Both the position numbers and the translations under genes were made by a program. From an uncultured Chloroflexia bacterium (GTDB lineage: Bacteria; Chloroflexota; Limnocylindria; Limnocylindrales; CSP1-4), in assembly GCA_963800275.1 (NCBI GenBank), contig CAWDAI010000008.1, positions 19,447-83,446 on the forward strand: a stretch of 64,000 nucleotides of DNA, read 5' to 3'. The notes under the pieces are model-generated. The model was given only the letters and a program-made list of their open reading frames with translations. It was not told where the DNA came from and made no database searches. Positions within the stretch are counted from its first letter, which is position 1, and each line of letters starts with the position of its first letter. Shown in pieces: positions 2,375 through 20,754 of the stretch.

Positions 2375-3319
2375 ATGGACATCCCACGCTTGGAGGCCTT
2401 CCTCGAGGTCGCGCGATTGGGTTCGATGCGCGCGGCGGCTCGGTCGCTGCATCTGGGACAGCCGGCACTCTCGGCGCGCATCGTGGCCCTGGAGGATGAA
2501 CTCGGGGCGCGGGTCTTCGAGCGCACCAAGCGTGGCGTCCGGCTGACGCTCGCGGGCCAGGCACTCGTGCCTCACGCCGAGCGCGCCATCGAGGCGGTGG
2601 ACGCGGGCCGTGCTGCCGTGCGGCAGGTGGAGCAGGGTGACGATGGCGAGCTGGCCATCGCGGCTGCGGGCGCCATCAACGCTTCGCTGGTGCCCGAGCT
2701 GGTGGCCCGCTTCCGGCGCTACCACCCGGGTGTCCACCTCCACGTCCACACCGGCTCGACGGAGCGCATCGTGGAGCTGGTGGCCTTCGGCACGGCGCAG
2801 CTGGGACTGCTCTGCCGCAGCATCCCCACACGTGACCCACGCGTGCGGGTGACACCCATCTACGAAGAGGTCTCCACCCTCGTCGCCCGGCCGGAGCACC
2901 CATTCGTGCGCGAGGGCGCGATCCCGCTGGCACGCCTCGGCGATGCCACCCTCATCTACTTCGACCGCGGCTCAGCCGACTACGAGGCGGCGCAGTCGCT
3001 GCTGAGGGAAGGCAGTGTCACCCCCTACGGGATCATCGAGGTGGACTCCGTGGACACTGCGCGGCGCCTCGTGGAGCGTGGCCTCGGCGTGGCCTTCCTG
3101 CCATCGACCGCAGCCGAGCCGGGGATCGAGGCCGGCCGTCTGGCCCAGGTCGCCCTCGCTGATGTCCGGCTGCCGCGGCGACAGGTCGTCGTGCTCGAGC
3201 GGGCAGCGGCCTCCACGTGGCCGCCCGTGGAGACCCTCCGTCGGCTGCTGGGCGAGGCGGGTGCCTTCTTGCCCGGCACCTTCCCCATCAGCTCGCCTCG
3301 CTCGGATCCACCGGCGTGA
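2375..3319 (+). CDS. LysR-family transcriptional regulator
   Basis: N-terminal HTH (LEAFLEVARLGSMRAAARSLHLGQPALSARIVALEDELGARVFERTKRGVRLT) and a C-terminal LysR substrate-binding fold; 314 aa. Confidence 0.9.
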   Translation: MDIPRLEAFLEVARLGSMRAAARSLHLGQPALSARIVALEDELGARVFERTKRGVRLTLAGQALVPHAERAIEAVDAGRAAVRQVEQGDDGELAIAAAGAINASLVPELVARFRRYHPGVHLHVHTGSTERIVELVAFGTAQLGLLCRSIPTRDPRVRVTPIYEEVSTLVARPEHPFVREGAIPLARLGDATLIYFDRGSADYEAAQSLLREGSVTPYGIIEVDSVDTARRLVERGLGVAFLPSTAAEPGIEAGRLAQVALADVRLPRRQVVVLERAAASTWPPVETLRRLLGEAGAFLPGTFPISSPRSDPPA

Positions 3320-5310
3320 ACCCGGAGCGTATCCTCGAGGGCCTCAACGCCGAGCAGCGCCAGGCGGTGACGACCGCCTCCGGTCCGGTCGCCATCATCG
3401 CCGGCGCGGGCAGTGGCAAGACGCGCGTGGTCAGCCAGCGCACGGCCTACGCGGTGGCCACGGACGTGGTGCCGGAGGACCGGGTCCTGCTGGTCACCTT
3501 CACGGAGAAGGCCGCGGCCGAGATGCGTCAGCGGGTGCGTACGCTCGGACTCGAGCGCGTCGCGGCGCGCACGTTCCACTCGGCGGCGCTGGCACAGCTG
3601 CGCTACTTCTGGCCCCCGCGTCACGATGGGGGCGCACTGCCGGAGGTGCTGGCCGACAAGTGGCGGCTGGTGGCACCGCTGGCGCGTGGCCTGCCCGGCG
3701 GCTACCGCTTCACGCCCACGCGCGACATCATCGATGAGATCGAGTGGGCCAAGAGTCGTCGCTTGACGCCGACGACCTACCTGTCGCATGCGGCCGGCCG
3801 CACGCCACCGCCGACACCCGACCTCTTCGTGGGCCTGTTCCGCGGTTATGAGCAGGCGAAGGATCGGCGCGGCTTCGTGGACTTCGACGACATCCTGCGC
3901 TTGACCGTCGAGCTGCTTGAGTCCGACCGGGAGGCGGCTGCTGTGGTGCGTTCGCGCTACAGCTGGTTCACCGTGGACGAGTACCAGGACACCACCCCCC
4001 TGCAGGCCCGCCTGCTGGAGTTGTGGCTGGGGGAGCGACGCGACATCTGCGTGGTCGGTGACGAGGACCAGACGATCTATACCTTCGCCGGCGCGGCCCC
4101 TGAGCATCTCACCGGCTTCGCGCGGCGCTACCCCGGCGCGGTCGTGCTGCCCCTGCTGACCAACTACCGGTCGTCACCCCAGGTGCTCGCTTTGGCCAAC
4201 AAGCTGCTGGCGTCGAGCGGTTCCGACAAGGAGCTGCATGCGACCCGGGACGATGGACCGGAGCCGGTCATCCGGACCTTCGGCTCGGCCGCGGAGGAAG
4301 CGGCCTACGTCGTGGCCACGGTCAAGGCCCTCATGAGGCAAGGCGTCGGCGCGAACCAGATCGCGGTGCTGCTGCGCCTGAATGCCCAGACCGCCGGCTT
4401 CGAGGAGGCCTTCGCGCGCGAAGGCATCGCCTACCAGCTGCGCGGCAAGCGCTTCTTCGAGCGTCGCGAGGTGCAGGCTGCCATCCGCGCGCTGGAGCGC
4501 ATCCCCGGTGACCTGACCGGCCGCGACCTGGTCGCGGCTGCCCGCTCAGCCTGGGATCGACAGCTGGGGTTCGACCCTGAGGCCGAGCCCGAGGGTCGGG
4601 AGGCGCGCGAGCGCCAGGCGACCCTCGTCACCCTGCTGGCCATCGTCTCCCAGCTGACCGCGGCCGATGCCGGCACCGGACGAGACGGCGTGGTCGGTGC
4701 GCTCCAGGAGCGAGCTGCGCGTGAGGCTGCAGCGGATGTCGGCGGAGTCGAGCTGCTCACGCTACACCGGGCCAAGGGGCTGGAATGGGACGCGGTCTTC
4801 ATCCCCCTGCTCGAGGAGGGCACGCTACCGGTCGCCCAGGCCGTCGATGACGAGGACGCGTTGGCCGAGGAGCGACGGCTGCTCTACGTGGGCATCACCC
4901 GCGCGCGGCGCCACCTGACCCTGTCGTGGGCCCGTGAACGAGTCTCGACCACGGGCAAGTCCGGCTCGCGACGGCCCTCGCGTTTCCTGGCCCAGCTGGG
5001 CGCGGAGCCGGCGATCCCGGTGCGGCGGATGGCACGGACGGAAGGGCGCGAACGCCAGCCCGCCGGAGCGGCGCGTGCCCGGCTCGGCGCCGACGACGCA
5101 GTGCTCTTCGACGCGTTGCGTGCGTGGCGCCTGCAGCGGGCCCGGGAGGAGAAGGTCTCGCCATTCATCGTGGCCTATGACACGGTCCTCGCCGAGATCG
5201 CCGAGCGTCGACCACGCGACGAGGCGGCGCTGCTGGCCGTCGCCGGCATGGGCCCGGCCAAGGTGGCCAAGTACGGCGCGGAGATCCTGGCTCTCGTGGC
5301 CGACGGCTAG
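3316..5310 (+). CDS. UvrD/PcrA-family SF1 DNA helicase with C-terminal HRDC domain (UvrD2-like)
   Basis: GTG start overlapping the LysR stop (GTGA). Helicase motif I AGAGSGKTRV, motif II VDEYQDT, and a C-terminal HRDC-like segment (VSPFIVAYDTVLAEIAERRP...GMGPAKVAKYG). Confidence 0.85.
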   Translation: MNPERILEGLNAEQRQAVTTASGPVAIIAGAGSGKTRVVSQRTAYAVATDVVPEDRVLLVTFTEKAAAEMRQRVRTLGLERVAARTFHSAALAQLRYFWPPRHDGGALPEVLADKWRLVAPLARGLPGGYRFTPTRDIIDEIEWAKSRRLTPTTYLSHAAGRTPPPTPDLFVGLFRGYEQAKDRRGFVDFDDILRLTVELLESDREAAAVVRSRYSWFTVDEYQDTTPLQARLLELWLGERRDICVVGDEDQTIYTFAGAAPEHLTGFARRYPGAVVLPLLTNYRSSPQVLALANKLLASSGSDKELHATRDDGPEPVIRTFGSAAEEAAYVVATVKALMRQGVGANQIAVLLRLNAQTAGFEEAFAREGIAYQLRGKRFFERREVQAAIRALERIPGDLTGRDLVAAARSAWDRQLGFDPEAEPEGREARERQATLVTLLAIVSQLTAADAGTGRDGVVGALQERAAREAAADVGGVELLTLHRAKGLEWDAVFIPLLEEGTLPVAQAVDDEDALAEERRLLYVGITRARRHLTLSWARERVSTTGKSGSRRPSRFLAQLGAEPAIPVRRMARTEGRERQPAGAARARLGADDAVLFDALRAWRLQRAREEKVSPFIVAYDTVLAEIAERRPRDEAALLAVAGMGPAKVAKYGAEILALVADG

Positions 5311-5951
5311 GAGCGGATGATCCAGTCGGGCTGGGCGCTGCGCTCGTAGACCAGGCGTGCGTTGGGCATGTCGTTGTCCTCCAGCTTGGCCCGGATCATC
5401 GCATCGCTGTAGTCGTAACCGACCCAGCGCTGGCGGTTGCGTACCTCCAGCGTCTCCATGTCCGCGACCACCATGGCCGTATGGTCGAACCAGGGACGGA
5501 GGCGTGGCCAGGGCTCGTCGTCGAGCAGCAGCCAGTTGCCCTCGGTGACGATGATCCGCGCAGCCGGCTCGATGATGATGGCGCCGGCCCGGGCGATCTC
5601 GATATCGCGGTCGAAGCGGGGCACGGCCACGCTCGGCTCGTCGTTGGTCTTGAGGCGACGGAGCGACGACGCATAGCCCCCCACATCGAAGGTGTGTGGC
5701 GCACCCTTGCGTGGCCGCCAGCCGCGGGGCACCAGCACCTCGTCGTCGTAGTGGTAGCCGTCCATCGGCAGGAGGGCTGCACTGCCGGGGTCGATCGCGT
5801 CGAGCCTCGCGACCAGGCCTGCCGCGATGGTGGACTTGCCCGAAGCGGGCGCACCGGCGATGGCGATGATGCGTCGCTCGCCGATGGAGACGCTGCCCGC
5901 CAGCTCCGCGACGTGGGCCATGAACGAGGCGCTGTCGAACTCCTGTGGCAT
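5307..5951 (-). CDS. P-loop nucleoside/nucleotide kinase-family protein (PRK/uridine-kinase-like)
   Basis: Walker A IAIAGAPASGKST; 214 aa; similar to kinases of the Frk type. The stop overlaps the convergent helicase stop. Confidence 0.7.
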   Translation of the reverse strand: MPQEFDSASFMAHVAELAGSVSIGERRIIAIAGAPASGKSTIAAGLVARLDAIDPGSAALLPMDGYHYDDEVLVPRGWRPRKGAPHTFDVGGYASSLRRLKTNDEPSVAVPRFDRDIEIARAGAIIIEPAARIIVTEGNWLLLDDEPWPRLRPWFDHTAMVVADMETLEVRNRQRWVGYDYSDAMIRAKLEDNDMPNARLVYERSAQPDWIIRS

Positions 5952-5994
5952 GGACCGATGGTAGCGGGCCCCAGCACCCGGCCGAGGACCGGGC

Positions 5995-7713
5995 TTAACG
6001 TCCGCTCGTCAGTCGCGCGGCGAGCCCGGGTGGCGCGATCGCGACCACATGGGTGGTGGCCCTCGTGAGGCCGACGTAGAGCAGCTCGTCGAGGCGGCCC
6101 GCGTCTTCAGGCAGCTCACAGAGCACGATGACCTCGCGCTCGAGCCCCTTGAAGCGACGGATGGACTCGAAGAGCACGACGTCGGGCGGTTCGTCCTCGA
6201 CCTGCTCGGGCGGCAGACCGCGTGTGCGCCCTGCGGCATCGAGGGCCTCGTTCCAGAGGGTCACGTTGCCGAACCTGCGCTGCCGCCAAACGCCGCTCGA
6301 AGCGGTGCCGACGCCCGACAGCACGGCGATCCTGAACTCCGGCACGTGTTCCTCCACGACCAGGCGATGAAGCGTCCGGCGCAGGGCCTCGATGGTCGCG
6401 GGCCCGGGCTCAGCGGTCTCGACGTGGGCGGGCAGGCCTTCCTCGCGGTAGACCTCCACCTCCATCCCGTCATCGCGGAAACGTGACGCCAGGCGGGCGA
6501 CGGCCGGCGGGTTCCGGTGGTCCTCGAAGAGATCCAGTCGCTCCAGTCCCAGCTGGGCGACGACGTCCGGCCGGTAGAGCGCCTGGGCCGGATCATGGAA
6601 GACCCAGAAGACGCCGTGCTCGTTGTCATGCAGCAGCAGCTGCAGAGACTCCAGCCAGCCCAGCGCGAAGTCCTGGCCCTCGTCCACGATGATCGCGTGG
6701 TAGCGGGCCTCGAGGTCGGCCCCGGCCGCCTCGAGCAGGGCGTCGGGCAGGGTCTCGTCCCACCACGCTCCCGGGATGGGCACCGGTCGTTCCGGCAGCA
6801 CCCCAGCCCGCTCGGCCAGCAGCTCGCACAGGCGGTGGAAGGTGGTGACCTCGAGGCCCGCAGGTGCCCGGACCTCGGCCAGCTCGCGTCGCATCGTCGT
6901 CGCCAGCCGCTGGTTGAAGCACACCAGCAACGTGCGGTAGCCCTCCTCCGCCAGGCGCCGGGCGCGCTCCGCTGCCAACATCGACTTGCCCGATCCGGCC
7001 GGTCCGATCACCTCCACCTGGCGCAGGGCCCTGAAGCGGTTGAGGATGCGTGACTGCATGCGTGAAGCAGCCACCAGGGCGGTCCGGTCATCCTCGATGC
7101 GACCGCGCACCAGCCGGTGCAGCGAGACGACCGGCCGGAGCAGGCTGTCCACGAGCTCCACGCCCTGCGGGCCCAGCGGGCGGTAGCGGCCGGCCCCGTC
7201 ACCCCGCCAATACTCGAAGACGCGGTCGAGCCAGCGCTGGATGCCGGCGGTGGTCTCGAGCGCGTGGGCATCGAGGACCAGCTCGACGGGCGCGTCCGGG
7301 CCCAGCAGTGAGCGGCCGCGCGGCAGCGACTGCAGATCGACGTCGGGGAAGGCCACGGCATGTCCGGCAAGGGGCTCGAGATCGGCCGGCCAGTCGGGCA
7401 GGTCCATGAGCTTGGCCCGCAGGTAGTGCTTGGAGGTGCGGGCTTGCTCGAAGGGGGACTCCTTGAGCGCCACCGGCCCCAGATACCAGTGCCCGTCGCG
7501 GTCGACCGAGGGCTCCCCGGACTTGACCTCCAGCACCAGCAGCCCGTACTCGGGATGGGTGATGACGGCGTCCGCCTCGCCATCTCGCGCCGGCCCGTGG
7601 TCGCGCAGCGGTCCGGTCCAGTTGACGTTGACGTAGATGCGGTACTCGGGTTCCGGCAGGGCCGCACGCAGCCGACGCTCGACCTGCCGCTCGGCTTCCT
7701 GCCCGTGCCGCAT
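5995..7713 (-). CDS. NERD (PD-(D/E)xK nuclease-related) domain fused to UvrD-like SF1 helicase
   Basis: N-terminal NERD with intact D...E.K (GEADAVITHPEYGLLVLEVKSG). Helicase motif I GPAGSGKS, motif II IIVDEGQD, and a C-terminal UvrD_C-like RFKGLEREVIVL...LYVGLTRA. 572 aa. Confidence 0.8.
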   Translation of the reverse strand: MRHGQEAERQVERRLRAALPEPEYRIYVNVNWTGPLRDHGPARDGEADAVITHPEYGLLVLEVKSGEPSVDRDGHWYLGPVALKESPFEQARTSKHYLRAKLMDLPDWPADLEPLAGHAVAFPDVDLQSLPRGRSLLGPDAPVELVLDAHALETTAGIQRWLDRVFEYWRGDGAGRYRPLGPQGVELVDSLLRPVVSLHRLVRGRIEDDRTALVAASRMQSRILNRFRALRQVEVIGPAGSGKSMLAAERARRLAEEGYRTLLVCFNQRLATTMRRELAEVRAPAGLEVTTFHRLCELLAERAGVLPERPVPIPGAWWDETLPDALLEAAGADLEARYHAIIVDEGQDFALGWLESLQLLLHDNEHGVFWVFHDPAQALYRPDVVAQLGLERLDLFEDHRNPPAVARLASRFRDDGMEVEVYREEGLPAHVETAEPGPATIEALRRTLHRLVVEEHVPEFRIAVLSGVGTASSGVWRQRRFGNVTLWNEALDAAGRTRGLPPEQVEDEPPDVVLFESIRRFKGLEREVIVLCELPEDAGRLDELLYVGLTRATTHVVAIAPPGLAARLTSGR

Positions 7714-7733
7714 GCGCCGATCCTGGCCGCTCG

Positions 7734-8333
7734 CTACCAGCGGTTGCGGTGGAGCTGCTCGTCGAGCGCTCGACGCCGCCGCTTGTCGACCGAGCTCTCC
7801 GGCTGGGGTTCGTGGCTGCGATGGCCGATGGCGATGACGCCGATCTGCCGGCGATCCGAGGGCACGCCGAAGCGTTCGCGCACAGCATCCTCGCCATCGG
7901 CGATACCGAAGAACCAGGTGTCCAGGCCGGCGTTCACGGCCGCCAGCTGCAGTTGCATGGAGGCCATGCCCGCGTCCACGTCCCAGAAGGGCACCGCCCA
8001 GGCGTCCGGGTCAGCGAGACCGAACTCGATCTTGTCCGGAGCCGAGTAGCGCTGGAGGTAGCGCTGGGGATCGGACCACACCAGCACCAGCACTGGTGGT
8101 CGATCAGCGATGTCTTCCGCGGTCGCCGGATCCTCGGGGTCCTCGGTGAGGGCCCAGAAGTCGGCGAGCGTGGCGGGCTCGTCGAGCACGAGGAAGTCGA
8201 TACCCTGCGAGAAGCCGGCCGTCGGTGCGCGGCGGGCCTGTTCCACGATCCTGTCGATGACCGCCCGATCGGGTCGCTGGTCAGTGAAGCGACGGATGCT
8301 GCGGCGCCTGCGCAGGACGTCATCGAATTCCAT
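7734..8333 (-). CDS. Nitroreductase-family protein
   Basis: RRRSIRRFTDQ... nitroreductase N-terminal signature; 199 aa. Sits 21 bp upstream of the NERD-helicase on the same strand. Confidence 0.8.
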   Translation of the reverse strand: MEFDDVLRRRRSIRRFTDQRPDRAVIDRIVEQARRAPTAGFSQGIDFLVLDEPATLADFWALTEDPEDPATAEDIADRPPVLVLVWSDPQRYLQRYSAPDKIEFGLADPDAWAVPFWDVDAGMASMQLQLAAVNAGLDTWFFGIADGEDAVRERFGVPSDRRQIGVIAIGHRSHEPQPESSVDKRRRRALDEQLHRNRW

Positions 8334-8422
8334 CCGCAGAGCCTACCAAGCGCAGGGCACAGGGATGGCCCGGGCGGATGTGGCCCGGGCCTCCGGCACG
8401 AGGGATCGGTGTGGGACTCGGT

Positions 8423-9184
8423 CTAGCCGACCTTGGCCAGGACTTCGGCAGCGCCTGAGCCATCGGCCCCGAAGGCGGGCTCGTCCTCGCGCTGGGGCAG
8501 GCCCCAGGGATTGCCGACGCCGGTGTCATCCTTGTTCTCGGGTGCGTCGGATGCCGCCTCGTCATCGTCGCGGTCCGAGCCGGTGTCGCTCTCGGCCTCG
8601 GCCTCGAACTCGTCCGTTGCCGGCTCTGCGGGTTCGCCACTCGCGTCGGCGTCGACGGTCTCGGCCGCGTCCTCCACGGCGACCGTCGCCTCGGCCTTGG
8701 CCATGGCCTCAGCCGCCTTCGCGGCCGCTGTCGCGGACAGGTCCACGTCCTTGCTGGCGAGGGCCACATGGGGGACCACGATGGCCTCCTCCTCGCCCTT
8801 CCAGACCTGCAGCTCGACGACCACCAGCGGCAAATGCTCGGCGAGGGTCTCGAGCGTGGTCTGGTAGCGATCGGAGAGCGTCTCTGTCACGAGCACCGCC
8901 ACGTGTTCCTTGTCGGGGTGGCGGACGCGGTTGCGAGCCCAGTTGTCGAGGACGCCGAAGCCGCGCGACGCCTCCAGCTCGCCCAGCTGTACGTCGACGC
9001 TGAAACAGCGCTCGTCGTCGATCGCGGCGAACGAACGTGCGTCGTCGTCGTGGTCACCCTCGGCCGCAGTCAGCTCGCCCAGGCCCAGCCGTGACGGCTG
9101 CTCGGAGAGCCACGTGCACATCCAGGCCTCGTCCTTGCCCAGGTCGGTGACGGTGGAAACCGCACCCGAAACGATGTTGGTCAT
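8423..9184 (-). CDS. Hypothetical protein with highly acidic, disordered C-terminal tail
   Basis: Internal start MTNIVSGAV (CAT 9182-9184). The N-terminal 130 aa look globular. The C-terminus is an Ala/Glu/Asp-rich tail (…EAEAESDTGSDRDDDEAASD…). The upstream 300 aa of ORF 8423..10087 have out-of-frame composition. Confidence 0.45.
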   Translation of the reverse strand: MTNIVSGAVSTVTDLGKDEAWMCTWLSEQPSRLGLGELTAAEGDHDDDARSFAAIDDERCFSVDVQLGELEASRGFGVLDNWARNRVRHPDKEHVAVLVTETLSDRYQTTLETLAEHLPLVVVELQVWKGEEEAIVVPHVALASKDVDLSATAAAKAAEAMAKAEATVAVEDAAETVDADASGEPAEPATDEFEAEAESDTGSDRDDDEAASDAPENKDDTGVGNPWGLPQREDEPAFGADGSGAAEVLAKVG

Positions 9185-9469
9185 CCCGAAGATCCCTCGC
9201 GCTACACAGGCCGGATGGCCGGCGGGAGTGCCAGACACCTCGGTCTGATTACAGCCGTACGGGGGTGGCTGGTCCACGGCCCCGAAGGTCCGCCCCCCCA
9301 TGATCCGGCCGGTGCGTCTCGGCACCTCCAGGCCGCTCGACCGTGCAGCGGGCTCGCGGCCACCATTCGCGTCGAGCACGCGCCATCCCGCGAGCACGTG
9401 TGTGAGAACATTAGGGTCCCCGGAATACGCCCGCGCCCGCTCTTGCCCGCGCTCCCGAAAGGAGCTCAG

Positions 9470-10195
9470 ATGCCTTCCCGGTCCACGTCCCCCAAGCCCA
9501 CCACCAAGTCGGCCACGGCAGTGGCCAAGCCCGCTGCCCGCTCGAAGGCAGTCGCGCTGCCGAAGGCGGCGGCCAAGGGCAGGTCGGTGGCCAGCTCGCA
9601 GAAGACCAGGGCCGCCAGCAAGCCGGTCGCGCCGGTGGTCCCCGAGCCACAGGAGCTGGTGCGGCCGCTGCTCAAGGTGCGACAGGCGCGTGAGTTCACG
9701 AGCAGGAAGGTGACGAGGGCCGAGCTCCACGCCATCACGGAGGCCGCGCGCTGGTCTGGCAGCAGCCGCAACGAGCAGTCCTGGCGTTTCATCGTGCTGC
9801 GTGACCGCACTCGCATCCGTGACATCGCCGAGCTGGGGCTGCCCCAGACTCGCGGACTCCGCACGGCCACGGCCGCGGTCGCGATCGTGTTGCCTGACGA
9901 GCCCGGCCGCGAGATCTCTCGCGCGTTCGACGACGGCCGCGCTGCGGAGCGCATGCTCATCGCCGCGCACCTGCTGGGTCTGGGTGGCGGCATCTCGTTC
10001 GTGCGGCGCGACGTCCGCGACCGCATCAACGAGGCCCTCGGTCTGCCGGCCAAGCGCTCGGTGCCCACGATCGTGGCCCTCGGTCACCCGACCGAGGACG
10101 CCCTGCAGTCGAAGTCACGACCTGGCCAGGCCCGGCTCCCTCGCGAGGAGGTCATCTTCGAGGAGCGTTGGCCGGACGAGCCTGCGCACCCATAG
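9470..10195 (+). CDS. Nitroreductase-family protein with N-terminal Lys/Ala/Pro-rich histone-like tail
   Basis: AAAGGAG RBS 6 nt upstream of ATG 9470. N-terminal 60 aa PKPTTKSATAVAKPAARSKAVALPKAAAKGRS... resemble actinobacterial HU/H1-like tails. The rest is a nitroreductase fold (RKVTRAELHAITEAARWSGSSRNEQSWRFIVL). Confidence 0.7.
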   Translation: MPSRSTSPKPTTKSATAVAKPAARSKAVALPKAAAKGRSVASSQKTRAASKPVAPVVPEPQELVRPLLKVRQAREFTSRKVTRAELHAITEAARWSGSSRNEQSWRFIVLRDRTRIRDIAELGLPQTRGLRTATAAVAIVLPDEPGREISRAFDDGRAAERMLIAAHLLGLGGGISFVRRDVRDRINEALGLPAKRSVPTIVALGHPTEDALQSKSRPGQARLPREEVIFEERWPDEPAHP

Positions 10196-13594: not shown

Positions 13595-16500
13595 GTGTTC
13601 CGCTACGCTGCGAGTGCCAATCGGGTAGCGGGGAGGCCGGTCATCGTCAGCTGTGGGACTTGCGCTGCGGACAACGCGGCTGGACGACGTTTCTGCGATC
13701 AGTGCGGCGCCAGTCTCATCGACGCATGCCCGAGCTGCGGGGCACAGAACCGAGCGGAGGCGCGATTCTGCGGCGACTGCGGCCAGGCCCTCGGCAACGG
13801 TCTCGATGCCGCAGCGCAGCGCGCGGGATCGTCCGCTGCCGTACCGATCCGCAGCCAGCCTGCCGCGGAGCGTCGTCTGGTCTCGGTGCTCTTCGCCGAT
13901 CTTGTCGCCTTCACCAAGTACTCCGAGGGGCGAGACCCGGAGCTCGTGCGCGAGACGCTGACCCGCTACTTCGAGTCCACGCGCACCGTGATCGAGCGTC
14001 ACGGCGGGCAGGTGGAGAAGTTCATCGGCGACGCTGTGATGGCGGCCTGGGGTGCACAGCGCGCGAACGAGGATGACGCCGAGCGCGCGGTGCGGGCCGC
14101 GCTGGAGGTGGTGAACGCCGTACGCGAGCTGGACGAGGGGCTGCGCGCTCGCGTGGGCGTCCTGACCGGCCAGGCCGCCGTGACCCTCGGCGCCACCGAC
14201 CAGGGCATGGTCGCGGGCGACCTGGTCAACACCGCCGCCCGCCTGCAGGCCGTGGCGCCGCCCGACACCGTGCTGGTGGGGGAAGCCACGATGCAGGCCG
14301 CGACAGGCGCCATCGCCTTCGAGCCGGCCGGCGAACAGGTGCTGAAAGGCAAGTCCGCCCCCGTGCCGGCGTGGCGCGCCCTGCGTGTCGTGGCCGATAA
14401 GGGCGGGCGTGGCCGAGGGGAGGGCCTTGAGCCGCCATTCGTAGGGCGCGAGATCGAGCTGCGCCTGCTGAAGGACGTGGTCAACGCCGCGAGCACCGAA
14501 CAGCGCCCGCGACTCGTCTCCATCACCGGGCCGGCGGGTATCGGCAAGAGTCGCCTGGCGTGGGAGTTCGAGAAGTACGTCGATGGCCTCGTCGAGCGGA
14601 TCTACTGGCACCGCGGACGCTCGCCCAGCTACGGCGAGGGCATCGCCTTCTGGGCCCTGGGTGAGATGGTCCGCCGTCGTGCCGGTCTGGCCGAGGGTGA
14701 CGACGAGGCCACGACACGTGAGCGGATCCACGCGGCCGTGTCCGAGTTCATCGCTGCCGGCGAGGCTGAGTGGATCGAGCGCTCCCTGCTCGTGCTGCTG
14801 GGCCTGGAGGCACCGCCGGACGGCGGGCGCGAGACGCTCTTCGCGGGCTGGCGTACCTTCTTCGAGCGCATCGCGGCCCGACAGACCACCGTGCTCGTGT
14901 TCGAGGACCTGCAATGGGCCGACGATGGCCTGCTCGACTTCATCGACCACCTGCTCGAGTGGTCCCGCGACGTGCCCATCCTCGTCGTCGGCCTGGCCCG
15001 GCCAGAGCTGCTCGATGAGCGACCCGGATGGGGCACGGGCAAGCGTTCGTTCAACGCCATCGGCTTGGAACCCCTGACCGACGACCAGATGCGCGATCTG
15101 CTGCGAGGGCTCGTGCCCACGATGCCCGACGACGCCGTGGCCCAGGTCGTGGCGCGCGCGGACGGGATCCCGCTCTACGCCGTCGAGATGGTGCGCATGC
15201 TCATCGCCGACGGCTCGCTCGTCGCTGGGCTCGACGGCACGTACGCGGCGACCAGGGAGCTGGGCACGCTGGCGCTGCCCGACACGCTGCGCGCGCTCGT
15301 GGCCTCGCGCCTCGACGCGCTGGATGCCACCGACCGGGCCCTGCTCCAGGACGCCACCATCCTGGGCCAGACCTTCGACCACCGCGCCCTCGCACGCATC
15401 ACGGACCGCGACGAGGACGAGGTGGAGGCCCGGCTTCGAGCACTCATGCAGCGCGAGCTGGTGGAGATCTCCGTCGACCCGCGTTCACCCGACCGGGGCC
15501 AGTATGGCTTCGTGCAGGCGGTCATCCGCGAGGTCGCCTACGAGACCCTCTCGCGCCGGGACCGTCGAGCCCGTCATCTCGCCACCGCGCGGTACTACGA
15601 GGCCGCCGGTGATGAGGAGCTGGCGGGAGTCCTGGCTGCCCACTACCTCGGCGCCTACAAGGCCTCTGACCCGGGACCCGAGGCGGACGCCCTCGGCGCG
15701 CAGGCGCGCCGCGCGCTCGTGTCGGCGGCCGCTCGCGCCCTCACGCTCGGTTCACCGGCGCAGGCCCTCGGCCACCTCGAGTCCGCGCTCGAGACCACCG
15801 ACGATCCCCTCGAGCAAGCTGGTCTCCTGGCTCGCGCTTCCACCGCCGCGTCGGTAGCGGGACGCAAGGACCTGGCCATCGATCAGGCCTCCCGTGCGGC
15901 AGCGATCTTCGATGAGGCGGGGCAGGACCGCTCCGCGCTCGAGGCGCTGGCGCTGAAGGGAGGGTTCCAGACGGACGCCGGTTACGACGAAGACGCGCGC
16001 GAGCTGCTCATCGAGGCCGCCGCGAGGGCGTCCGCGCCGGAGGACGCGGATGTGCGGGCCGATCTGCTGGCTCGCCTCAGTCGCGTACACATGCGGCTGC
16101 AAGAGGAGCCGGAGGCGATCGCTGCGGCTGACCAGGCGCTCGCCCTGGCCGAGCCCCTGGGTCTGGACCGGGTCACGGCCGAGGCACTCATCAACAAGTC
16201 CGGCACGCTGAGCCAGATGCGTCGCATCCGCGAGCCGGCCATCCTGATGCAGGGAGCCGTGGACCTGGCCACGGAGGTCGGCGACATCGAGTTGCAGATG
16301 CGCGCTCGGGCGAACCTCTCCGCGACATACAGCCACCAGGACCTCGACCTGGCCATCGCGGCCTCGGTCGAGGCCCTCGAGATCGCCCGGCGCCTGGGGA
16401 CGAGTGGGTACGTCGAGTGGCTCGTGGGTGGACTCGTGCTCTTCGAGTTCGCTCGCGGACACGACTGGGACGCAGCCATCGAACTGCTCGACCGCGCCAT

Positions 16501-17188
16501 CGACGACACCGACGCCGACGCCGACTACATGCGCTACCTGTTCCTGGGCGTCCGACAGCAGTACCTGACCATGCGTGGGCAGGAGACTGGCGGCACCGTC
16601 GAAGCCATGCGTGGGATCCTCGCGTCCGCGGACTTCGTGCCCTTCCAGCGCTTCGATCACATGTCGGCCTACGAGACGTTGCTTGCCGGTCGCCCGGAGA
16701 CCGCGGTCCGTGAGTTCCAGGCGACGTACGGGGTGATGGCCCGCGCGATCGGCGAGGCGCTCGCCGGCGGCAGCATCGCAGCCGCGTATGCGCGCGACGT
16801 CGTGGCGGCCCGCGATGCCTCCAAGCGGCTGCAGGAGTGGGAGGAGGGCGGTCGTGGCGGCGATGCGATCCGTGAGCTCGGTCGCGCCGTCGTCCATGCG
16901 CTCGAAGGGCGCGAGGAGTCGGCTACGGCTTCGTTCGTGCGGGCGGTCGAACGAATGCGAGCTGGGAAGAACCACTTCTGGGTGGCGGTCCTGCAAGCGG
17001 TCGCGCTCGAGCTCCAGCCGGCACGGTCCAGCACCGATGGCTGGGAAGAGGAGGCCCGGGCGCGCTTCGAGCTGCTGGCTGCCGAACCCTGGCTGCGGCT
17101 CCTCGACGCATCGGTGGCGCGCGGGCACGGGCGCGATGCCGAGCCATCGGGTCCAGCGTCGGCCAGTCTCGTCGGGGGTGGAGCATGA
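13595..17188 (+). CDS. Double zinc-ribbon / class III adenylate-guanylate cyclase / P-loop NTPase (STAND/AAA-like) / TPR-repeat protein, copy 1
   Basis: Zinc ribbons: CGTCAADN...CDQCG...CPSCG...CGDCG. Cyclase catalytic motifs: LVSVLFADLVAFT, FIGDAVMAAWG, GDLVNTAARLQ. P-loop GPAGIGKSRLAWEF, Walker B LVFEDLQWAD, then about 500 aa of TPR-like helical repeats. No C-terminal HTH. 1197 aa. Confidence 0.9.
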   Translation: MFRYAASANRVAGRPVIVSCGTCAADNAAGRRFCDQCGASLIDACPSCGAQNRAEARFCGDCGQALGNGLDAAAQRAGSSAAVPIRSQPAAERRLVSVLFADLVAFTKYSEGRDPELVRETLTRYFESTRTVIERHGGQVEKFIGDAVMAAWGAQRANEDDAERAVRAALEVVNAVRELDEGLRARVGVLTGQAAVTLGATDQGMVAGDLVNTAARLQAVAPPDTVLVGEATMQAATGAIAFEPAGEQVLKGKSAPVPAWRALRVVADKGGRGRGEGLEPPFVGREIELRLLKDVVNAASTEQRPRLVSITGPAGIGKSRLAWEFEKYVDGLVERIYWHRGRSPSYGEGIAFWALGEMVRRRAGLAEGDDEATTRERIHAAVSEFIAAGEAEWIERSLLVLLGLEAPPDGGRETLFAGWRTFFERIAARQTTVLVFEDLQWADDGLLDFIDHLLEWSRDVPILVVGLARPELLDERPGWGTGKRSFNAIGLEPLTDDQMRDLLRGLVPTMPDDAVAQVVARADGIPLYAVEMVRMLIADGSLVAGLDGTYAATRELGTLALPDTLRALVASRLDALDATDRALLQDATILGQTFDHRALARITDRDEDEVEARLRALMQRELVEISVDPRSPDRGQYGFVQAVIREVAYETLSRRDRRARHLATARYYEAAGDEELAGVLAAHYLGAYKASDPGPEADALGAQARRALVSAAARALTLGSPAQALGHLESALETTDDPLEQAGLLARASTAASVAGRKDLAIDQASRAAAIFDEAGQDRSALEALALKGGFQTDAGYDEDARELLIEAAARASAPEDADVRADLLARLSRVHMRLQEEPEAIAAADQALALAEPLGLDRVTAEALINKSGTLSQMRRIREPAILMQGAVDLATEVGDIELQMRARANLSATYSHQDLDLAIAASVEALEIARRLGTSGYVEWLVGGLVLFEFARGHDWDAAIELLDRAIDDTDADADYMRYLFLGVRQQYLTMRGQETGGTVEAMRGILASADFVPFQRFDHMSAYETLLAGRPETAVREFQATYGVMARAIGEALAGGSIAAAYARDVVAARDASKRLQEWEEGGRGGDAIRELGRAVVHALEGREESATASFVRAVERMRAGKNHFWVAVLQAVALELQPARSSTDGWEEEARARFELLAAEPWLRLLDASVARGHGRDAEPSGPASASLVGGGA

Positions 17189-20100
17189 GCGTCTTCTGCA
17201 CCAGCTGTGGCCAGGCCAATGGCGACGGCGCTGCCTTCTGCGACAGCTGCGGCAGCACGCTCAACTCGGGCTGTCCCGAGTGTGGTGCCGAGAACCGGCC
17301 CGAGGCGCGCTTCTGCCGTAGCTGCGGTACGCACCTGGCTGACGCGGATGTGCCGACGCCGGCGCCGGCTCCGGCCGGGACACGAACCTTGCCCGCATCG
17401 GCCGATGGCGGCACCGCGGAGCGCCGCCTGGTGTCGGTGCTCTTCGCCGACCTCGTGTCCTTCACCAGCTATTCCGAAGGCCGCGATCCCGAGCTCGTAC
17501 GTGAGACGCTGACCCGCTACTTCGAGGCCACGCGACACGCCATCGAGCATCACGGCGGCCGGGTGGAGAAGTTCATCGGCGATGCGGTGATGGCGGCGTG
17601 GGGCGCCCCCAGGGCCAACGAGGACGACGCCGAACGGGCGGTGCGCGCCGCCCTCGAGGTGGTCGAGGCGGTCCGCAACCTCAACGAGGGGCTGGAAGCC
17701 CGCGTGGGCGTGCTCACCGGCCACGCCGCGGTCACCGTGGGTGCGACCGACCAGGGCATGGTCGCGGGCGACATGGTCAACACGGCCGCGCGCCTGCAGG
17801 CAGCAGCTCCCCCCAGCACCGTGCTGGTAGGGGAGGCCACGATGCAGGCGGCGTCCGGCGCCATCGCCTTCGAGGAGGCCGGCGAGCAGGTCCTCCGCGG
17901 CAAGACGGCCCCGGTCCCGGCCTGGCGCGCCCTGCGCGTCATCGGTGATCGCGGTGGGCGCAGCCGCGGCGAGGGCCTGGAGCCCCCGTTCGTCGGCCGC
18001 GAGCTGGAGCTGCGCCTGCTCAAGGACCTGGTCCACGCGGTCGATGAGGACCGGCGTCCGCGACTCGTCTCCATCACCGGACCCGCCGGCATCGGCAAGA
18101 GCCGCCTGGCGTGGGAGTTCGAGAAGTACCTCGACGGCCTGGTCGACGGCGTCTATTGGCACCGCGGCCGTGCCCCCAGCTATGGCGACGGGGTCACCTT
18201 CTGGGCGCTCGGCGAGATGGTCCGCAAGCGGGCCGGGCTACTCGAGTCGGACGACGAGAACACCACGCGCGAACGGGTTCGCGCGACCGTCGAGGAGTGG
18301 GTGCCCGACCAGAAGGACCGGGCCTGGGTGGAGCCGGCGCTGCTGACCCTGCTCGGCCTCGAGCCACCACCGGCCGGCGGCCGCGACGTGCTCTTCGCGG
18401 CCTGGCGGATCTTCTTCGAGCGCGTGGCTGCGCATGGCACGACGATCCTGCTGTTCGAGGACCTGCAGTGGGCCGACAGCGGGCAGCTCGACTTCATCGA
18501 TCACCTCATGGAGTGGGCCCGTGACGTCCCCTTGCTGGTGGTGACCCTTGCCCGCCCCGAGCTGCTCGAGCGCCGGCCCGGCTGGGGCACCACGGCTCGT
18601 GCCTTCAATGCGGTCGGACTGGAGCCGCTCACGCCGGCCAATATGCGTGAGCTCCTGCTGGGCCTCGTCCCTGGCCTGCCCGCGGACGCGGTCTCGACGG
18701 TCCTCGAGCGAGCCGATGGCATCCCCCTCTACGCGGTGGAGACGGTCCGCATGCTGGTGGCCGACGGCCGCCTGCTGGCTGACGGCGACGGCACCTTCCG
18801 CCCGGCCGGCGAGCTCGGTGAGCTGGCCATGCCCGATTCTCTGCGGGCGCTGATCGCCTCTCGCCTCGACGCGCTTGACGATGCCGATCGCACCCTCCTG
18901 CAGGACGCGGCGGTGCTGGGCAAGACCTTCACGCCGGACGCGATCGCAGCCATCTACGGCCAGGACGAGGCGGAGATCGCATCGCGCTTGCGGGCACTCT
19001 CGCGCCGAGAGCTGCTGGAGATCGCGGTCGATCCCGCCTCACCCGAGCGGGGCCAGTTCGGGTTCGTCCAGTCAGTCGTCCGCGAGGTCGCTTACGAGAC
19101 CCTGTCCCGGCGTGATCGACGGACTCGACATCTGGCCGCGGCGCGCTACTTCGAGGGCCTGGGGGATGAGGAGCTGGCGGGCGTGCTCTCGACGCACTAC
19201 ATGGCCGCGTACGAGGCCTCGGAACCCGGTCCGGAGGCGGATGCGCTGCGCATCCAGGCGCGCCTGGCCCTGCAGGGGGCAGCCGAGCGTGCGATGGACC
19301 TGGGTGCCTACGACCAGGCTCGCCTGAGCTTGCAGCGGGCCCTCTCGATCACCGAGGACGCCGCGGAGCGAGCATCGCTCCTCGAACGCGCCGCCGCCGC
19401 CGCCGACATCGAGGGGGCATACGAAGAGGCCGAGCGGCTCGGCCGGGAGGCGCTCGCTGCCTACGAGTCCATCGACGACCATACCGGCGCGGCCCGGACC
19501 TCGGCCAGGCTGGGCATGATCCTGCTCAACGCCTCGCGGCTGACCGAGACCGTCGAGCTGCTGGAATCAGCGCTGGCCAAGGCCGATCGGCCGGAGGACG
19601 CGAAGCCGCGGGCCGAGATCCTGGCGAGCCTCTCTCGCGCCCACATGCGGCTGCTCCAGACGGAGCAGGCCCTGGCTCGGGCCGACGAGGCGCTGGCCAT
19701 CGCCGAGCCCCTGCGCCTGCGGCACACCATCGGCGAGGCCTTCATCAACAAGGCCGGCGCCCTATCGCAGTCGGGTCGGCTGGTGGAGCCGATCGTCTTG
19801 ATGTCAGCAGCCGTCGACCTGGCCCACGAGCAGGGTGACATGGCCCTCGAGCTGCGTGCGCGCAACAACCTTGCCGCCACCCAGGGCACGGAGGACGGCG
19901 ACGCCGCCATGCGGGTCAGCCGCGAAGCCTACGCGCTGGCCACGCGCCTGGGCATCCGACAGATGTCGACCTGGCTGGCTGGTGCCATCGCCCAGGGAGC
20001 GCTCTACGAGGGGCTCGACTGGGATACGGCGCTGCGCCAGGTGGATACCGAGATCGACGGCAGCATGTCCGACGCCGACCGGGTGCGACTGCTCTCGCTG

Positions 20101-20754
20101 CGCGAGGCGCTGATGGCCTTCCGCGGGGACGATCGGACCGAGCTGCTGGCTGCCCGCGAGCGGCTGACCGTGCAGATCAGCGATCCCGACGAGGAGTTGT
20201 CGGAGGCGGTGAATGCCGCGCATGCGTCGTTCGTCGACGGCCGCATCGACGAGGCGCTGGCCGCCTACGCGCCGTACATCCGGGCACAGACCCAGAACTC
20301 CCTGGAGGCACGTTGGGGATATGTCCTCGCGGCACAGTTCGCCCGAGACCCGGAGGCGGCTCGACGCGGCCTCGAGGCCCTGGACTTCGAGCCCTACGCC
20401 GGGACCTACGTCGACGGCGTACGCCGGCTGGCCGAAGCGGGCGTGGCCGCGCTCGAGGGACAGCCCGGGGCTGCGCTGGCGTCCTATCGCGCCGCTATCG
20501 AGGCCTGGCGCGCCTGCGGCGCCCGCTTCGATGTCGCCATCGCCCAGATGGCTGCCCTGACCTCGTTGCCAGACGAGCCGTCCATCGAGGGTTGGGCCGA
20601 TGAGGCTCGTGAGCGCTTCGAGATCGTGAGATCGCCGGCGCTGCTCGAGCGACTCGAGCAGGTGCTGGCGACCCGTGCCATCGAACGAGCCAACGGCACG
20701 CAGGCACCCGAGGCGAAGCCTGCCAATGCCGCCAGGGACGCAGGCGCGCGCTAG
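17185..20754 (+). CDS. Double zinc-ribbon / class III cyclase / P-loop NTPase / TPR-repeat protein, copy 2 (tandem paralog)
   Basis: ATGA overlap with copy 1. Same motif set (CTSCG...CDSCG...CPECG...CRSCG; FADLVSFT; IGDAVMAAWG; GDMVNTAARLQ; GPAGIGKSRLAWEF; LLFEDLQWAD). 1189 aa. Confidence 0.9.
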   Translation: MSVFCTSCGQANGDGAAFCDSCGSTLNSGCPECGAENRPEARFCRSCGTHLADADVPTPAPAPAGTRTLPASADGGTAERRLVSVLFADLVSFTSYSEGRDPELVRETLTRYFEATRHAIEHHGGRVEKFIGDAVMAAWGAPRANEDDAERAVRAALEVVEAVRNLNEGLEARVGVLTGHAAVTVGATDQGMVAGDMVNTAARLQAAAPPSTVLVGEATMQAASGAIAFEEAGEQVLRGKTAPVPAWRALRVIGDRGGRSRGEGLEPPFVGRELELRLLKDLVHAVDEDRRPRLVSITGPAGIGKSRLAWEFEKYLDGLVDGVYWHRGRAPSYGDGVTFWALGEMVRKRAGLLESDDENTTRERVRATVEEWVPDQKDRAWVEPALLTLLGLEPPPAGGRDVLFAAWRIFFERVAAHGTTILLFEDLQWADSGQLDFIDHLMEWARDVPLLVVTLARPELLERRPGWGTTARAFNAVGLEPLTPANMRELLLGLVPGLPADAVSTVLERADGIPLYAVETVRMLVADGRLLADGDGTFRPAGELGELAMPDSLRALIASRLDALDDADRTLLQDAAVLGKTFTPDAIAAIYGQDEAEIASRLRALSRRELLEIAVDPASPERGQFGFVQSVVREVAYETLSRRDRRTRHLAAARYFEGLGDEELAGVLSTHYMAAYEASEPGPEADALRIQARLALQGAAERAMDLGAYDQARLSLQRALSITEDAAERASLLERAAAAADIEGAYEEAERLGREALAAYESIDDHTGAARTSARLGMILLNASRLTETVELLESALAKADRPEDAKPRAEILASLSRAHMRLLQTEQALARADEALAIAEPLRLRHTIGEAFINKAGALSQSGRLVEPIVLMSAAVDLAHEQGDMALELRARNNLAATQGTEDGDAAMRVSREAYALATRLGIRQMSTWLAGAIAQGALYEGLDWDTALRQVDTEIDGSMSDADRVRLLSLREALMAFRGDDRTELLAARERLTVQISDPDEELSEAVNAAHASFVDGRIDEALAAYAPYIRAQTQNSLEARWGYVLAAQFARDPEAARRGLEALDFEPYAGTYVDGVRRLAEAGVAALEGQPGAALASYRAAIEAWRACGARFDVAIAQMAALTSLPDEPSIEGWADEARERFEIVRSPALLERLEQVLATRAIERANGTQAPEAKPANAARDAGAR

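What the first reader, a model, noticed from the sequence alone, without database searches (positions are those of the whole stretch)
5307..8333. NERD nuclease fused to UvrD-like SF1 helicase, flanked by nitroreductase and a P-loop kinase: nuclease-helicase (Nhi-like) candidate
Gene 5995..7713 combines an N-terminal NERD (PD-(D/E)xK-type) domain with conserved D/E/K (GEADAVITHPEYGLLVLEVKSG) and a complete SF1 helicase core (GPAGSGKS; IIVDEGQD; UvrD_C-like LYVGLTRA). Single-polypeptide nuclease+helicase fusions of this kind have been described as stand-alone anti-phage/anti-plasmid proteins (Nhi-type). They are distinct from the housekeeping UvrD2-like helicase with HRDC that sits just upstream (3316..5310). 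The gene is co-directional and tightly spaced with a nitroreductase (21-bp gap) and followed by a P-loop kinase. This could be a small operon of unknown combined function.
Basis: partly seen in the sequence, partly recalled or inferred. Interest (0 to 1): 0.5.

Follow-up and report, generated by a model that had tools for sequence, protein, structure and literature searches.

The report
Stand-alone NERD nuclease–SF1 helicase gene
A real, intact gene in an uncultured soil Chloroflexota bacterium fuses a DNA-cutting domain to a DNA-unwinding motor; it is a common but dispensable gene in a changeable stretch of chromosome, its distant relatives sit among anti-virus genes, it is not a member of the Nhi family, and it forms no conserved unit with its two neighbours.

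Summary
ORF 5995-7713 (minus strand, 572 aa) is a NERD PD-(D/E)xK nuclease fused to a compact SF1A-type helicase, and all catalytic motifs are invariant among homologues.

It is not a member of the Nhi or Nhi-like family. Their defining DUF2075/PF09848 domain and the PADLOC Nhi profile both fail. The best defence-library match is the NERD-helicase associated with UG34 reverse transcriptases, but no reverse transcriptase is present here.

The gene belongs to a large family of about 560-aa proteins. In other phyla (32-37% identity), all five members sampled lie among defence genes: DISARM-like modules, DarT, a type III-B CRISPR locus, and plasmids.

In this Limnocylindrales-like lineage the gene is stand-alone. 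It is inherited vertically and is more conserved than UvrD2. It is present in 19 of 22 resolved syntenic loci and cleanly absent from 3. It sits in a variable interval rich in toxin-antitoxin pairs, between a conserved 253-aa gene and the kinase-UvrD2 flank.

The nitroreductase and the kinase are not conserved partners, so the operon idea fails.

Most likely it is a self-contained ATP-driven nuclease-helicase acting on invading or aberrant DNA. A repair role is the main rival. It is a new member of a known but uncharacterised kind, of moderate interest.

The parts
5995..7713 (-). NERD nuclease-SF1 helicase gene (572 aa plus stop), called NH in this report
   Evidence: ORF and translation. Pfam NERD + AAA_19/UvrD-helicase + UvrD_C_2. 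More than 600 homologues of 567-575 aa. AF2 model mean pLDDT 80.5.
7408..7704 (-). NERD (PD-(D/E)xK-type) nuclease domain, aa 4-102
   Evidence: PF08378 E 3.8e-10, 40.7 bits against cut-off 22.1. The modelled secondary structure H2-18, E25-32, E45-53, E57-63, H87-103, E116-122 is the alpha-beta-beta-beta-alpha-beta core.
7522..7584 (-). Catalytic signature D44-G-E46-A-D48 ... E62-V-K64
   Evidence: Invariant in 24 lineage homologues. Kept as GEAD...LEVKGG in 32-37% identical relatives from other phyla. The same E/D/ExK pattern was shown by mutation to be needed in the NERD protein ZwsA (bioRxiv 10.64898/2026.04.06.716636).
7036..7338 (-). Helical linker region, aa 126-226, between nuclease and motor
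   Evidence: Helices 149-226 in the AF2 model, with the lowest confidence around aa 194-208. No Pfam match.
5998..7035 (-). Compact SF1A-like helicase core, aa 227-572
6982..7005 (-). Motif I / Walker A, GPAGSGKS
   Evidence: Invariant.
6670..6693 (-). Motif II / Walker B, IIVDEGQD
   Evidence: D344-E-G-Q-D348-F invariant; VVDEGQDF in the outgroup.
6058..6081 (-). Motif VI, LYVGLTRA
   Evidence: Invariant Y546, L549, T550, R551, A552.
7720..7725 (-). -10-like hexamer CAGGAT whose last T lies 7 nt before the A of the ATG; a possible own promoter giving a leaderless mRNA (inferred)
   Evidence: In the same register, about 26 related loci from two clades carry CAGACT, CAGAAT, TATCAT, GACACT or CATACT followed by 6-7 nt and then ATG, although their upstream genes differ. 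The generic promoter scan found nothing.
7734..8333 (-). Neighbour, not a conserved partner: nitroreductase-family gene (NTR1, 199 aa)
   Evidence: PF00881 1.9e-21. Adjacent to NH only in a sub-clade. Present without NH in L087.
5307..5951 (-). Neighbour, not a conserved partner: PRK09270-type nucleoside/nucleotide kinase (214 aa); part of the conserved kinase-UvrD2 flank
   Evidence: NCBIfam NF006746 238 bits. Kept next to UvrD2 in L081 and L083, which lack NH. Lies 0.8-4 kb from NH in other relatives.
8423..9184 (-). Left border of the variable interval: lineage-specific 253-aa protein with an acidic C-terminal tail (called c1 in this report)
   Evidence: 58% identical to cluster c1. No Pfam or PADLOC hit. 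237 homologues. Used as the anchor for the presence/absence test.

Best explanation
NH (5995-7713, minus strand) is a self-contained ATP-driven nuclease-helicase.

Shown:
- An intact NERD PD-(D/E)xK nuclease and a complete, compact SF1 motor with UvrD/Rep-type motifs sit in one 572-aa chain.
- No partner gene is conserved across relatives.
- In this Limnocylindrales-like lineage the gene descends vertically under strong constraint. Yet it lies in a variable chromosomal interval full of toxin-antitoxin pairs and is cleanly missing from some related genomes.
- Its relatives in other phyla sit in defence islands.

Inferred:
- The motor loads on single-stranded DNA at ends, gaps or replication/recombination intermediates and moves 3'->5', as SF1A enzymes do.
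- It delivers the DNA to the N-terminal nuclease, which degrades it.
- The benefit to the cell is most likely destruction of invading (phage or plasmid) DNA. It would therefore work like Nhi without belonging to that family.
- It is probably transcribed from its own promoter as a leaderless mRNA, not as an obligate operon with the nitroreductase and the kinase.
For: - Domains and invariant catalytic residues.
- Family size: 1,992 50%-identity clusters at E<1e-30, nearly all co-linear proteins of about 560 aa.
- Defence-library homology: PADLOC RTasNERD-Hel 4.6e-45 over nearly the full length, C3a187 'NERD+UvrD' 7.7e-26. The former is the UG34-associated cluster 485 of PMC9226505.
- Outgroup contexts, all five sampled:
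  - UvrD-helicase, DrmA-like helicase, DUF1998, NH, DarT and Tn3 on an Azospirillum plasmid.
  - A DUF3883 giant protein followed by NH on a Sphingomonas plasmid.
  - Next to a type III-B CRISPR locus in Thermomicrobium.
  - DrmE_C, a DEAD helicase, N6_N4_Mtase and NH.
  - A DNA methylase, MZB/DUF1998, Helicase_C, a UvrD-helicase and NH.
- Variable presence: of 27 c1-bearing contigs of at least 10 kb, NH is present in 19, absent in 3 with both flanks intact and no remnant, and unresolved in 5. L083 is an empty site.
- Interval contents vary: PIN-Phd, PemK and RES-Xre pairs, an IS, an M23 peptidase, DUF6880 (PADLOC PDC-S62, 4.6e-39) and alpha-2-macroglobulin.
- No conserved partner across three clades.
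- A conserved -10-like hexamer lies just before the ATG.
Against: - No experiment bears on this gene, and no member of this ~560-aa family has been characterised.
- Conservation is unusually high for a defence gene. NH is 76-80% identical where UvrD2 on the same contigs is 71-77%, and mean 83% against 68% for the flanking FGase gene.
- Its divergence tracks the flank (Pearson 0.88, 0/2000 permutations), so there is no sign of horizontal shuffling.
- Base composition matches the host. There is no integrase, tRNA or flanking repeat.
- No recognised defence gene lies within 8 kb in the window.
- PADLOC profile hits are not specific. Housekeeping UvrD2 hits GajB profiles at 1e-70.
- In 27 of 71 loci an AddA/AddB-like or UvrD2 repair gene lies within 8 kb, which fits a repair role equally well.
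- The three 'absent' genomes could carry a copy elsewhere.
Confidence: 0.5

Rival explanations
1. Genome-maintenance enzyme. A defence-family nuclease-helicase has become a nearly fixed chromosomal gene of this lineage. It processes the cell's own DNA ends, stalled forks or recombination intermediates, as an accessory to UvrD2 and AddAB/AdnAB-type enzymes.
For: - NH is more conserved than UvrD2 and FGase in the same genomes and is vertically inherited.
- It is present in 19 of 22 resolved loci.
- Related copies exist in 68 species-representative loci, all Chloroflexota, each clade with its own stable synteny.
- UvrD2 or AddA/AddB-like genes lie within 8 kb in 27 of 71 loci across three clades.
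Against: - The gene is cleanly lost in three related genomes.
- It sits in a toxin-antitoxin-rich variable interval.
- No GAAC-N4-GTTC SOS box lies upstream in 63 loci, though the LexA motif of this class is unknown.
- All five sampled outgroup relatives lie in defence contexts.
Confidence: 0.3
2. Effector of a multi-gene system encoded elsewhere in the genome, such as a DISARM-like module or a UG34-type reverse transcriptase acting in trans. NH would then be inactive or mis-targeted on its own.
For: The nearest outgroup relatives lie beside DrmA/DrmB/DrmE/methylase genes. The best PADLOC profile was built from RT-associated proteins.
Against: No such gene lies within 8 kb in the window. None recurs among the neighbour clusters of 71 related loci. 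In UG34 systems only 7 of 17 reverse transcriptases have the helicase. The rest of the genome could not be searched.
Confidence: 0.12
3. A three-gene operon (nitroreductase, nuclease-helicase, kinase) with a combined function.
For: The genes are co-directional, with gaps of 20 and 43 bp and no terminator-like site. The arrangement is kept in ~95% identical relatives L075 and L077, and NTR1-NH is directly adjacent in L086.
Against: - The kinase lies 0.8-4 kb away, or is not within 8 kb, in most relatives.
- The kinase stays beside UvrD2 when NH is absent.
- NTR1 is absent from most NH loci and occurs without NH in L087.
- Neither gene is near NH in the 52-64% identity clades.
- NH appears to keep its own -10-like element.
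Confidence: 0.04

Closest known systems
Nhi (Staphylococcus epidermidis) and Nhi-like (Millman et al. 2022)
   Same: One polypeptide with an N-terminal nuclease and a C-terminal SF1 helicase, acting without partner genes. Nhi-like is listed with a NERD domain (PMC10952713). Human SLFN11/14, whose helicase domain belongs to the same Pfam family as DUF2075 (PF09848), are the top Foldseek matches.
   Different: PF09848 is below threshold (15.8 against 24 bits, profile positions 6-89 of 354). The PADLOC Nhi profile scores 14.5 bits on the P-loop only. The motifs are UvrD/Rep-like. Nhi lies in mobile SCC-type cassettes (PMC11470126), whereas NH is chromosomal and vertically inherited.
UG34 reverse-transcriptase-associated NERD-helicase (cluster 485 of Mestre et al. 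2022; PADLOC PDLC03813 RTasNERD-Hel)
   Same: Best defence-library match: E 4.6e-45, 152.7 bits, aa 23-557 on profile positions 31-508 of 519. Same NERD plus helicase order.
   Different: No reverse transcriptase in the window or as a recurrent neighbour. The score indicates a homologue, not a close family member.
NERD-helicases beside DISARM-like modules and on plasmids (PGAP name 'NERD domain-containing protein/DEAD/DEAH box helicase'; PADLOC candidate C3a187)
   Same: 32-37% identity over the full length, the same ~560-aa architecture and every catalytic motif.
   Different: Those genes sit beside DrmA/DrmB/DrmE/methylase, DarT, DUF3883 or CRISPR genes on plasmids or islands. NH is alone in a chromosomal interval.
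SF1A helicases and helicase-nucleases (Rep/UvrD/PcrA, HelD, AdnAB, AddAB, RecB)
   Different: The nuclease is N-terminal and of NERD type. The motor is only about 345 aa, without UvrD-sized 1B/2B domains (Pfam UvrD-helicase matches profile positions 15-89 of 271 only). It is a single chain with no heterodimer partner.

Membership tests
Nhi / Nhi-like defence proteins | N-terminal predicted nuclease in the same polypeptide | tested here: met
   NERD PF08378, 40.7 bits against cut-off 22.1. E8, D48, E62 and K64 invariant.
Nhi / Nhi-like defence proteins | C-terminal DUF2075 / PF09848 helicase domain (definition in 10.1101/2022.05.11.491447) | tested here: not met
   PF09848 scores 15.8 bits, E 0.0085, against cut-off 24, covering only profile positions 6-89 of 354.
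Nhi / Nhi-like defence proteins | Match to the Nhi sequence profile | tested here: not met
   PADLOC PDLC02372 Nhi: E 0.0025, 14.5 bits, aa 220-265 only. AbiO: 15.7 bits. The DefenseFinder Nhi-like profile was not available.
Nhi / Nhi-like defence proteins | Protects against phage; triggered through phage replication or SSB complexes | not testable with these tools
   This requires experiment (background: PMC10732053).
UG34-RT-associated NERD-helicase (DRT accessory) | Match to the family profile | tested here: met
   PDLC03813: E 4.6e-45, 152.7 bits, near full length. The score is moderate, indicating homology rather than a close family member.
UG34-RT-associated NERD-helicase (DRT accessory) | Adjacent UG/Abi reverse transcriptase | tested here: not met
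   No RT by Pfam or PADLOC in genes from 424 to 20754. No recurrent partner in 71 loci.
NERD-SF1 helicase fusion family (~560 aa; PADLOC candidate C3a187) | Co-linear NERD domain plus SF1 core with motifs I-VI, shared over the full length with family members | tested here: met
   1,992 clusters at E<1e-30, mostly matching profile positions ~5-565. Motif-by-motif alignment with five outgroup members. C3a187: E 7.7e-26.
SF1A UvrD/Rep/PcrA helicases | Conserved helicase motifs of UvrD/Rep type | tested here: met
SF1A UvrD/Rep/PcrA helicases | Full UvrD-helicase and UvrD_C domains with 1B/2B accessory subdomains | tested here: not met
   PF00580 matches only profile positions 15-89 of 271. PF13361 UvrD_C does not match. 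No NCBIfam UvrD, PcrA or Rep hit.
SF1A UvrD/Rep/PcrA helicases | 3'->5' translocation on ssDNA | not testable with these tools
   Inferred from the motif type only.
DISARM (as accessory nuclease-helicase) | Neighbouring drmA (helicase), drmB (DUF1998/MZB) and a methylase | tested here: not met
   Absent from the window and from lineage loci. Present beside outgroup relatives.

The most novel reading that the evidence does not exclude
The most novel reading has two versions, and the evidence excludes neither.

1. The ~560-aa NERD-SF1A helicase family is an unrecognised stand-alone immune effector, distinct from Nhi. In one bacterial class it has been retained vertically for a very long time, under stronger constraint than UvrD2.
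2. Alternatively, it is a defence-island nuclease-helicase caught in the act of being adopted for chromosome maintenance.
Probability: 0.25. Interest if true: 0.6.

Novelty: new member of a known kind. Interest (0 to 1): 0.38.

Why it matters
NERD-helicase fusions are widespread: about 2,000 50%-identity clusters at E<1e-30. They are listed only as candidates or accessories in defence catalogues, and none of this type has been characterised.

This lineage offers a clean natural comparison. Filled and empty sites share identical flanks, and the gene needs no partner. That makes it a convenient starting point for testing whether the family is a single-gene immune system or a repair factor.

It also shows that architecture alone is not enough to file a gene under Nhi. 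For annotation purposes, the nitroreductase and the kinase should not be read as part of a system.

Tried and rejected
- Core-gene reading. Counts of 90%-identity clusters (NH 37 at >=72% identity against UvrD2 about 48 at >=70%) and NH's higher conservation first suggested a core housekeeping gene. The c1-anchored test found three clean absences and a variable interval, so 'strictly core' was dropped.
- Multiple paralogues per genome. L071 proved to be a noisy inverted fold-back copy of L057 on one nanopore contig, and L062 is a fragment. This is not evidence of paralogy.
- SOS regulation. No GAAC-N4-GTTC box within 350 bp upstream in 63 loci. The true LexA motif of the class is unknown.
- Mobile-element borders. 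There are no tRNA genes in 1-22000 and only chance-length repeats around 5200-9300. Base composition is flat.
- Generic sigma-70 promoter and intrinsic-terminator scan: nothing found.
- PDB sequence search: no hit at E<=0.01.
- Metagenome scan with c1 returned only four ~90% identical loci, which say nothing about presence or absence.
- The afdb50 fold library was unavailable.
- The 466-aa and 476-aa genes occupying the slot in L087 and L081 are unrelated to each other and have no Pfam or PADLOC match.
- Literature search found no characterised NERD plus UvrD-like fusion.
Full report
**What is in the sequence**

The window is ~70% G+C with no compositional break around the finding. Three co-directional genes lie on the minus strand:
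- a nitroreductase-family gene (NTR1, 7734-8333);
- the 572-aa gene of interest (NH, 5995-7713);
- a PRK09270-type nucleoside/nucleotide kinase (5307-5951).

The gaps between them are 20 and 43 bp. A fourth co-directional gene lies upstream at 8423-9184. It encodes a 253-aa protein with an acidic tail and no family match, and I call it c1. UvrD2 with an HRDC domain (3316-5310) is on the plus strand, convergent with the kinase.

NH matches NERD (PF08378, E 3.8e-10, above threshold; aa 4-102), AAA_19, the N-terminal part of UvrD-helicase, and UvrD_C_2.

**Is the enzyme intact?**

An alignment of 24 homologues at 60-96% identity has a mean column identity of 72%. The invariant residues are:
- nuclease residues E8, D44, E46, D48, E62, K64 and Q90;
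- SF1 motifs I (GPAGSGKS), Ia (CFNQRLA), TFHRLC, II (DEGQDF), III (HDPxQA..R), IV (RNP), V (RRFKGxER) and VI (YxxLTRATT).

The same motifs survive in relatives from other phyla at 32-37% identity. The AF2 model (mean pLDDT 80.5) shows the alpha-beta-beta-beta-alpha-beta nuclease core, with D48 and E62-x-K64 on consecutive strands. A helical linker follows, then a compact two-RecA motor.

**Organism and family**

The closest proteins come from 'Candidatus Limnocylindrales' and 'uncultured Chloroflexia' soil MAGs. A scan of species-representative genomes found 68 loci, all Chloroflexota. That scan used two exact peptide patterns and so reaches only the close family.

A profile search of 1.84 billion representative proteins found 1,992 clusters at E<1e-30. 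Nearly all are ~545-585-aa proteins matched end to end. Scores drop sharply, from 800-500 bits for this lineage to <=388 bits for everything else.

**Comparison with defence catalogues**

- The best PADLOC match is RTasNERD-Hel (E 4.6e-45, near full length), followed by the candidate C3a187 'NERD+UvrD' (7.7e-26).
- The Nhi profile gives 14.5 bits on the P-loop only.
- RTasNERD-Hel corresponds to 'cluster 485', found beside 7 of 17 UG34 reverse transcriptases (PMC9226505). There is no reverse transcriptase or any other recognised defence gene among the genes from 424 to 20754.
- Nhi and Nhi-like are defined as an N-terminal nuclease plus DUF2075/PF09848. PF09848 is sub-threshold here (15.8 against 24 bits).

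NH therefore resembles Nhi in architecture but fails its membership tests. These profile hits show homology only: the housekeeping UvrD2 next door hits GajB profiles at 1e-70.

**Relatives in other phyla**

All five contexts I examined are defence-like:
- an Azospirillum plasmid with UvrD-helicase, DrmA-like helicase, DUF1998, NH, DarT and Tn3;
- a Sphingomonas plasmid with a 1,618-aa DUF3883 protein abutting NH;
- the Thermomicrobium megaplasmid, next to a type III-B CRISPR locus;
- a metagenomic contig with DrmE_C, a DEAD helicase, N6_N4_Mtase and NH;
- a metagenomic contig with a DNA methylase, MZB/DUF1998, Helicase_C and a UvrD-helicase, divergent from NH.

The family also occurs on 28 plasmid or chromid records and one phage record.

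**Synteny within the lineage**

In the 74-83% identity clade the upstream order g11333 - FGase - NTR2 - c1 is conserved. NTR1 is present in only some loci. The region downstream of NH is variable. The kinase lies 44 bp to 4 kb away, or is not within 8 kb.

The 61-64% and 52-55% identity clades each have their own conserved neighbours: SNase and a PD-(D/E)xK gene in one, and SIMPL - NH - YccF in the other. They share none of the window's neighbours. No partner gene is conserved across clades.

NH diverges in step with the flanking FGase gene (Pearson 0.88, 0 of 2000 permutations reached it). It is more conserved than FGase (mean 83% against 68%) and more conserved than UvrD2 on the same contigs (76-80% against 71-77%). 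In ~95% identical relatives, NH, UvrD2 and the kinase all sit at 94.6-94.9%. This is vertical descent under strong purifying selection.

**Core or accessory?**

I used c1 as an anchor chosen independently of NH. Among 27 c1-bearing contigs of at least 10 kb:
- NH is on the same contig in 19. Adjacency was seen directly in 15.
- NH is absent from the interval in 3.
- 5 were not examined.

The absences are clean:
- L083 reads c1 - 84-aa ORF - kinase - lactate permease - UvrD2, with ~360 bp between c1 and the kinase.
- L081 has unknown genes and a RES-Xre pair instead.
- L087 keeps NTR1 but has an unrelated 466-aa gene in place of NH.
- tblastn finds no NH remnant at E<=1e-3 in any of them, while the flanks are 60-81% identical to the window.

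The c1-to-kinase interval otherwise carries a changing mix: PIN-Phd, PemK and RES-Xre pairs, an IS, an M23 peptidase, a cyclase, DUF6880 (PADLOC candidate PDC-S62), alpha-2-macroglobulin and unknown genes.

NH is therefore common but dispensable, and it resides in a variable chromosomal interval. The kinase belongs to the conserved kinase-UvrD2 flank. I picked the seven loci examined directly because their contig lengths were not in the NH lists, which enriches for absences. The 19:3 ratio over all resolved contigs is the fairer figure. A second copy elsewhere in the three genomes cannot be excluded.

**Transcription**

Generic promoter and terminator scans find nothing. However, in about 26 loci from two clades a -10-like hexamer (CAGACT, CAGAAT, TATCAT, GACACT or CATACT) is followed by 6-7 nt and then the ATG, whatever gene lies upstream. 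The window has CAGGAT (7720-7725) in the same register. This suggests NH has its own promoter and a leaderless mRNA. It is an inference from sequence alone.

**Interpretation**

I commit to a self-contained ATP-driven nuclease-helicase whose most likely benefit is degrading invading or aberrant DNA (confidence 0.5). It would work like Nhi without being a member of that family.

The main rival, at 0.3, is a genome-maintenance role. It is favoured by the exceptional conservation and by UvrD2 or AddA/AddB-like genes within 8 kb in 27 of 71 loci. It is disfavoured by the clean losses, the toxin-antitoxin-rich setting, the lack of an SOS box and the defence contexts of the wider family.

Dependence on a system encoded elsewhere (0.12) could not be tested. 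The three-gene operon idea (0.04) is contradicted by the comparative data.

**Novelty and interest**

This is a new, lineage-specific member of a known but uncharacterised kind, the NERD-SF1 helicase fusions catalogued as defence candidates or accessories. The surprising element is the combination of class-wide, UvrD2-beating conservation with residence in a variable island. The useful element is the natural pairing of filled and empty sites. Interest is moderate, at 0.38.

Noticed in passing
window 13595-17188 and 17185-20754 (+): Two tandem paralogous genes of ~1,190 aa overlap by 4 bp. Each has a double zinc ribbon, a class III adenylate/guanylate cyclase domain and an AAA_16 (STAND-like) NTPase domain. 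PADLOC gives only generic PycC cyclase hits. Homologues occupy the same position in relatives L083, L085 and L086.
   Followed up: partly
window 8423-9184 (-): Lineage-specific 253-aa protein (c1). It has a ~150-aa N-terminal domain and a strongly acidic ~100-aa tail, with no Pfam or PADLOC match and 237 homologues. It marks the conserved left border of the variable interval and lies directly upstream of NH in many relatives. The acidic tail might mimic DNA, but this was not tested.
   Followed up: partly
window 5952-8422, compared with L081-L087: The c1-to-kinase interval behaves as a chromosomal hot spot. It ranges from an empty site (~360 bp in L083) to more than 8 kb. Its contents include PIN-Phd, PemK and RES-Xre toxin-antitoxin pairs, an IS (rve), an M23 peptidase, alpha-2-macroglobulin, DUF6880 (PADLOC PDC-S62) and unknown 466-aa and 476-aa genes. 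No integrase, tRNA or flanking repeats were found.
   Followed up: partly
L079 8001-9755; L080 8001-9719; L072 (Azospirillum plasmid NZ_CP029836.1) 6947-8632: The nearest relatives outside the lineage (34-37% identity) lie beside DISARM-like gene sets: DrmE_C, DrmA-like helicase, DUF1998/MZB, methylases and an extra UvrD-like helicase. This suggests the NERD-helicase is a recurrent accessory nuclease of such modules.
   Followed up: partly
L057 and L071 (both on contig CAVPJO010000018.1, 25.7 kb): This public MAG contig carries the FGase...NTR1-NH block twice in inverted orientation, and one copy is riddled with frameshifts. It looks like a nanopore fold-back chimera rather than a true duplication. 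Several Microflora Danica contigs also show frameshifted UvrD2 or NH genes.
   Followed up: partly
L004, L017-L019, L021, L025, L027, L035, L044, L048, L066, L068, L070 (within 8 kb of NH): AddA-like (UvrD helicase plus C-terminal PD-(D/E)xK, ~876+ aa) and AddB/Cas4-like (PDDEXK_1, ~345 aa) genes recur near NH in all three clades. UvrD2 does the same in the window's clade. This may be a remnant of an ancestral repair-gene neighbourhood.
   Followed up: partly
window 8423-10087 (-) versus 9215-10195 (+): The mechanical 554-aa minus-strand ORF is an artefact of high G+C. Only its last 253 codons (c1) are real. The rest overlaps a genuine plus-strand nitroreductase-family gene (NTR2, 326 aa, with an N-terminal extension). 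Likewise, the 697-aa UvrD2 ORF starting at 3217 over-extends the real 664-aa gene starting at 3316.
   Followed up: yes
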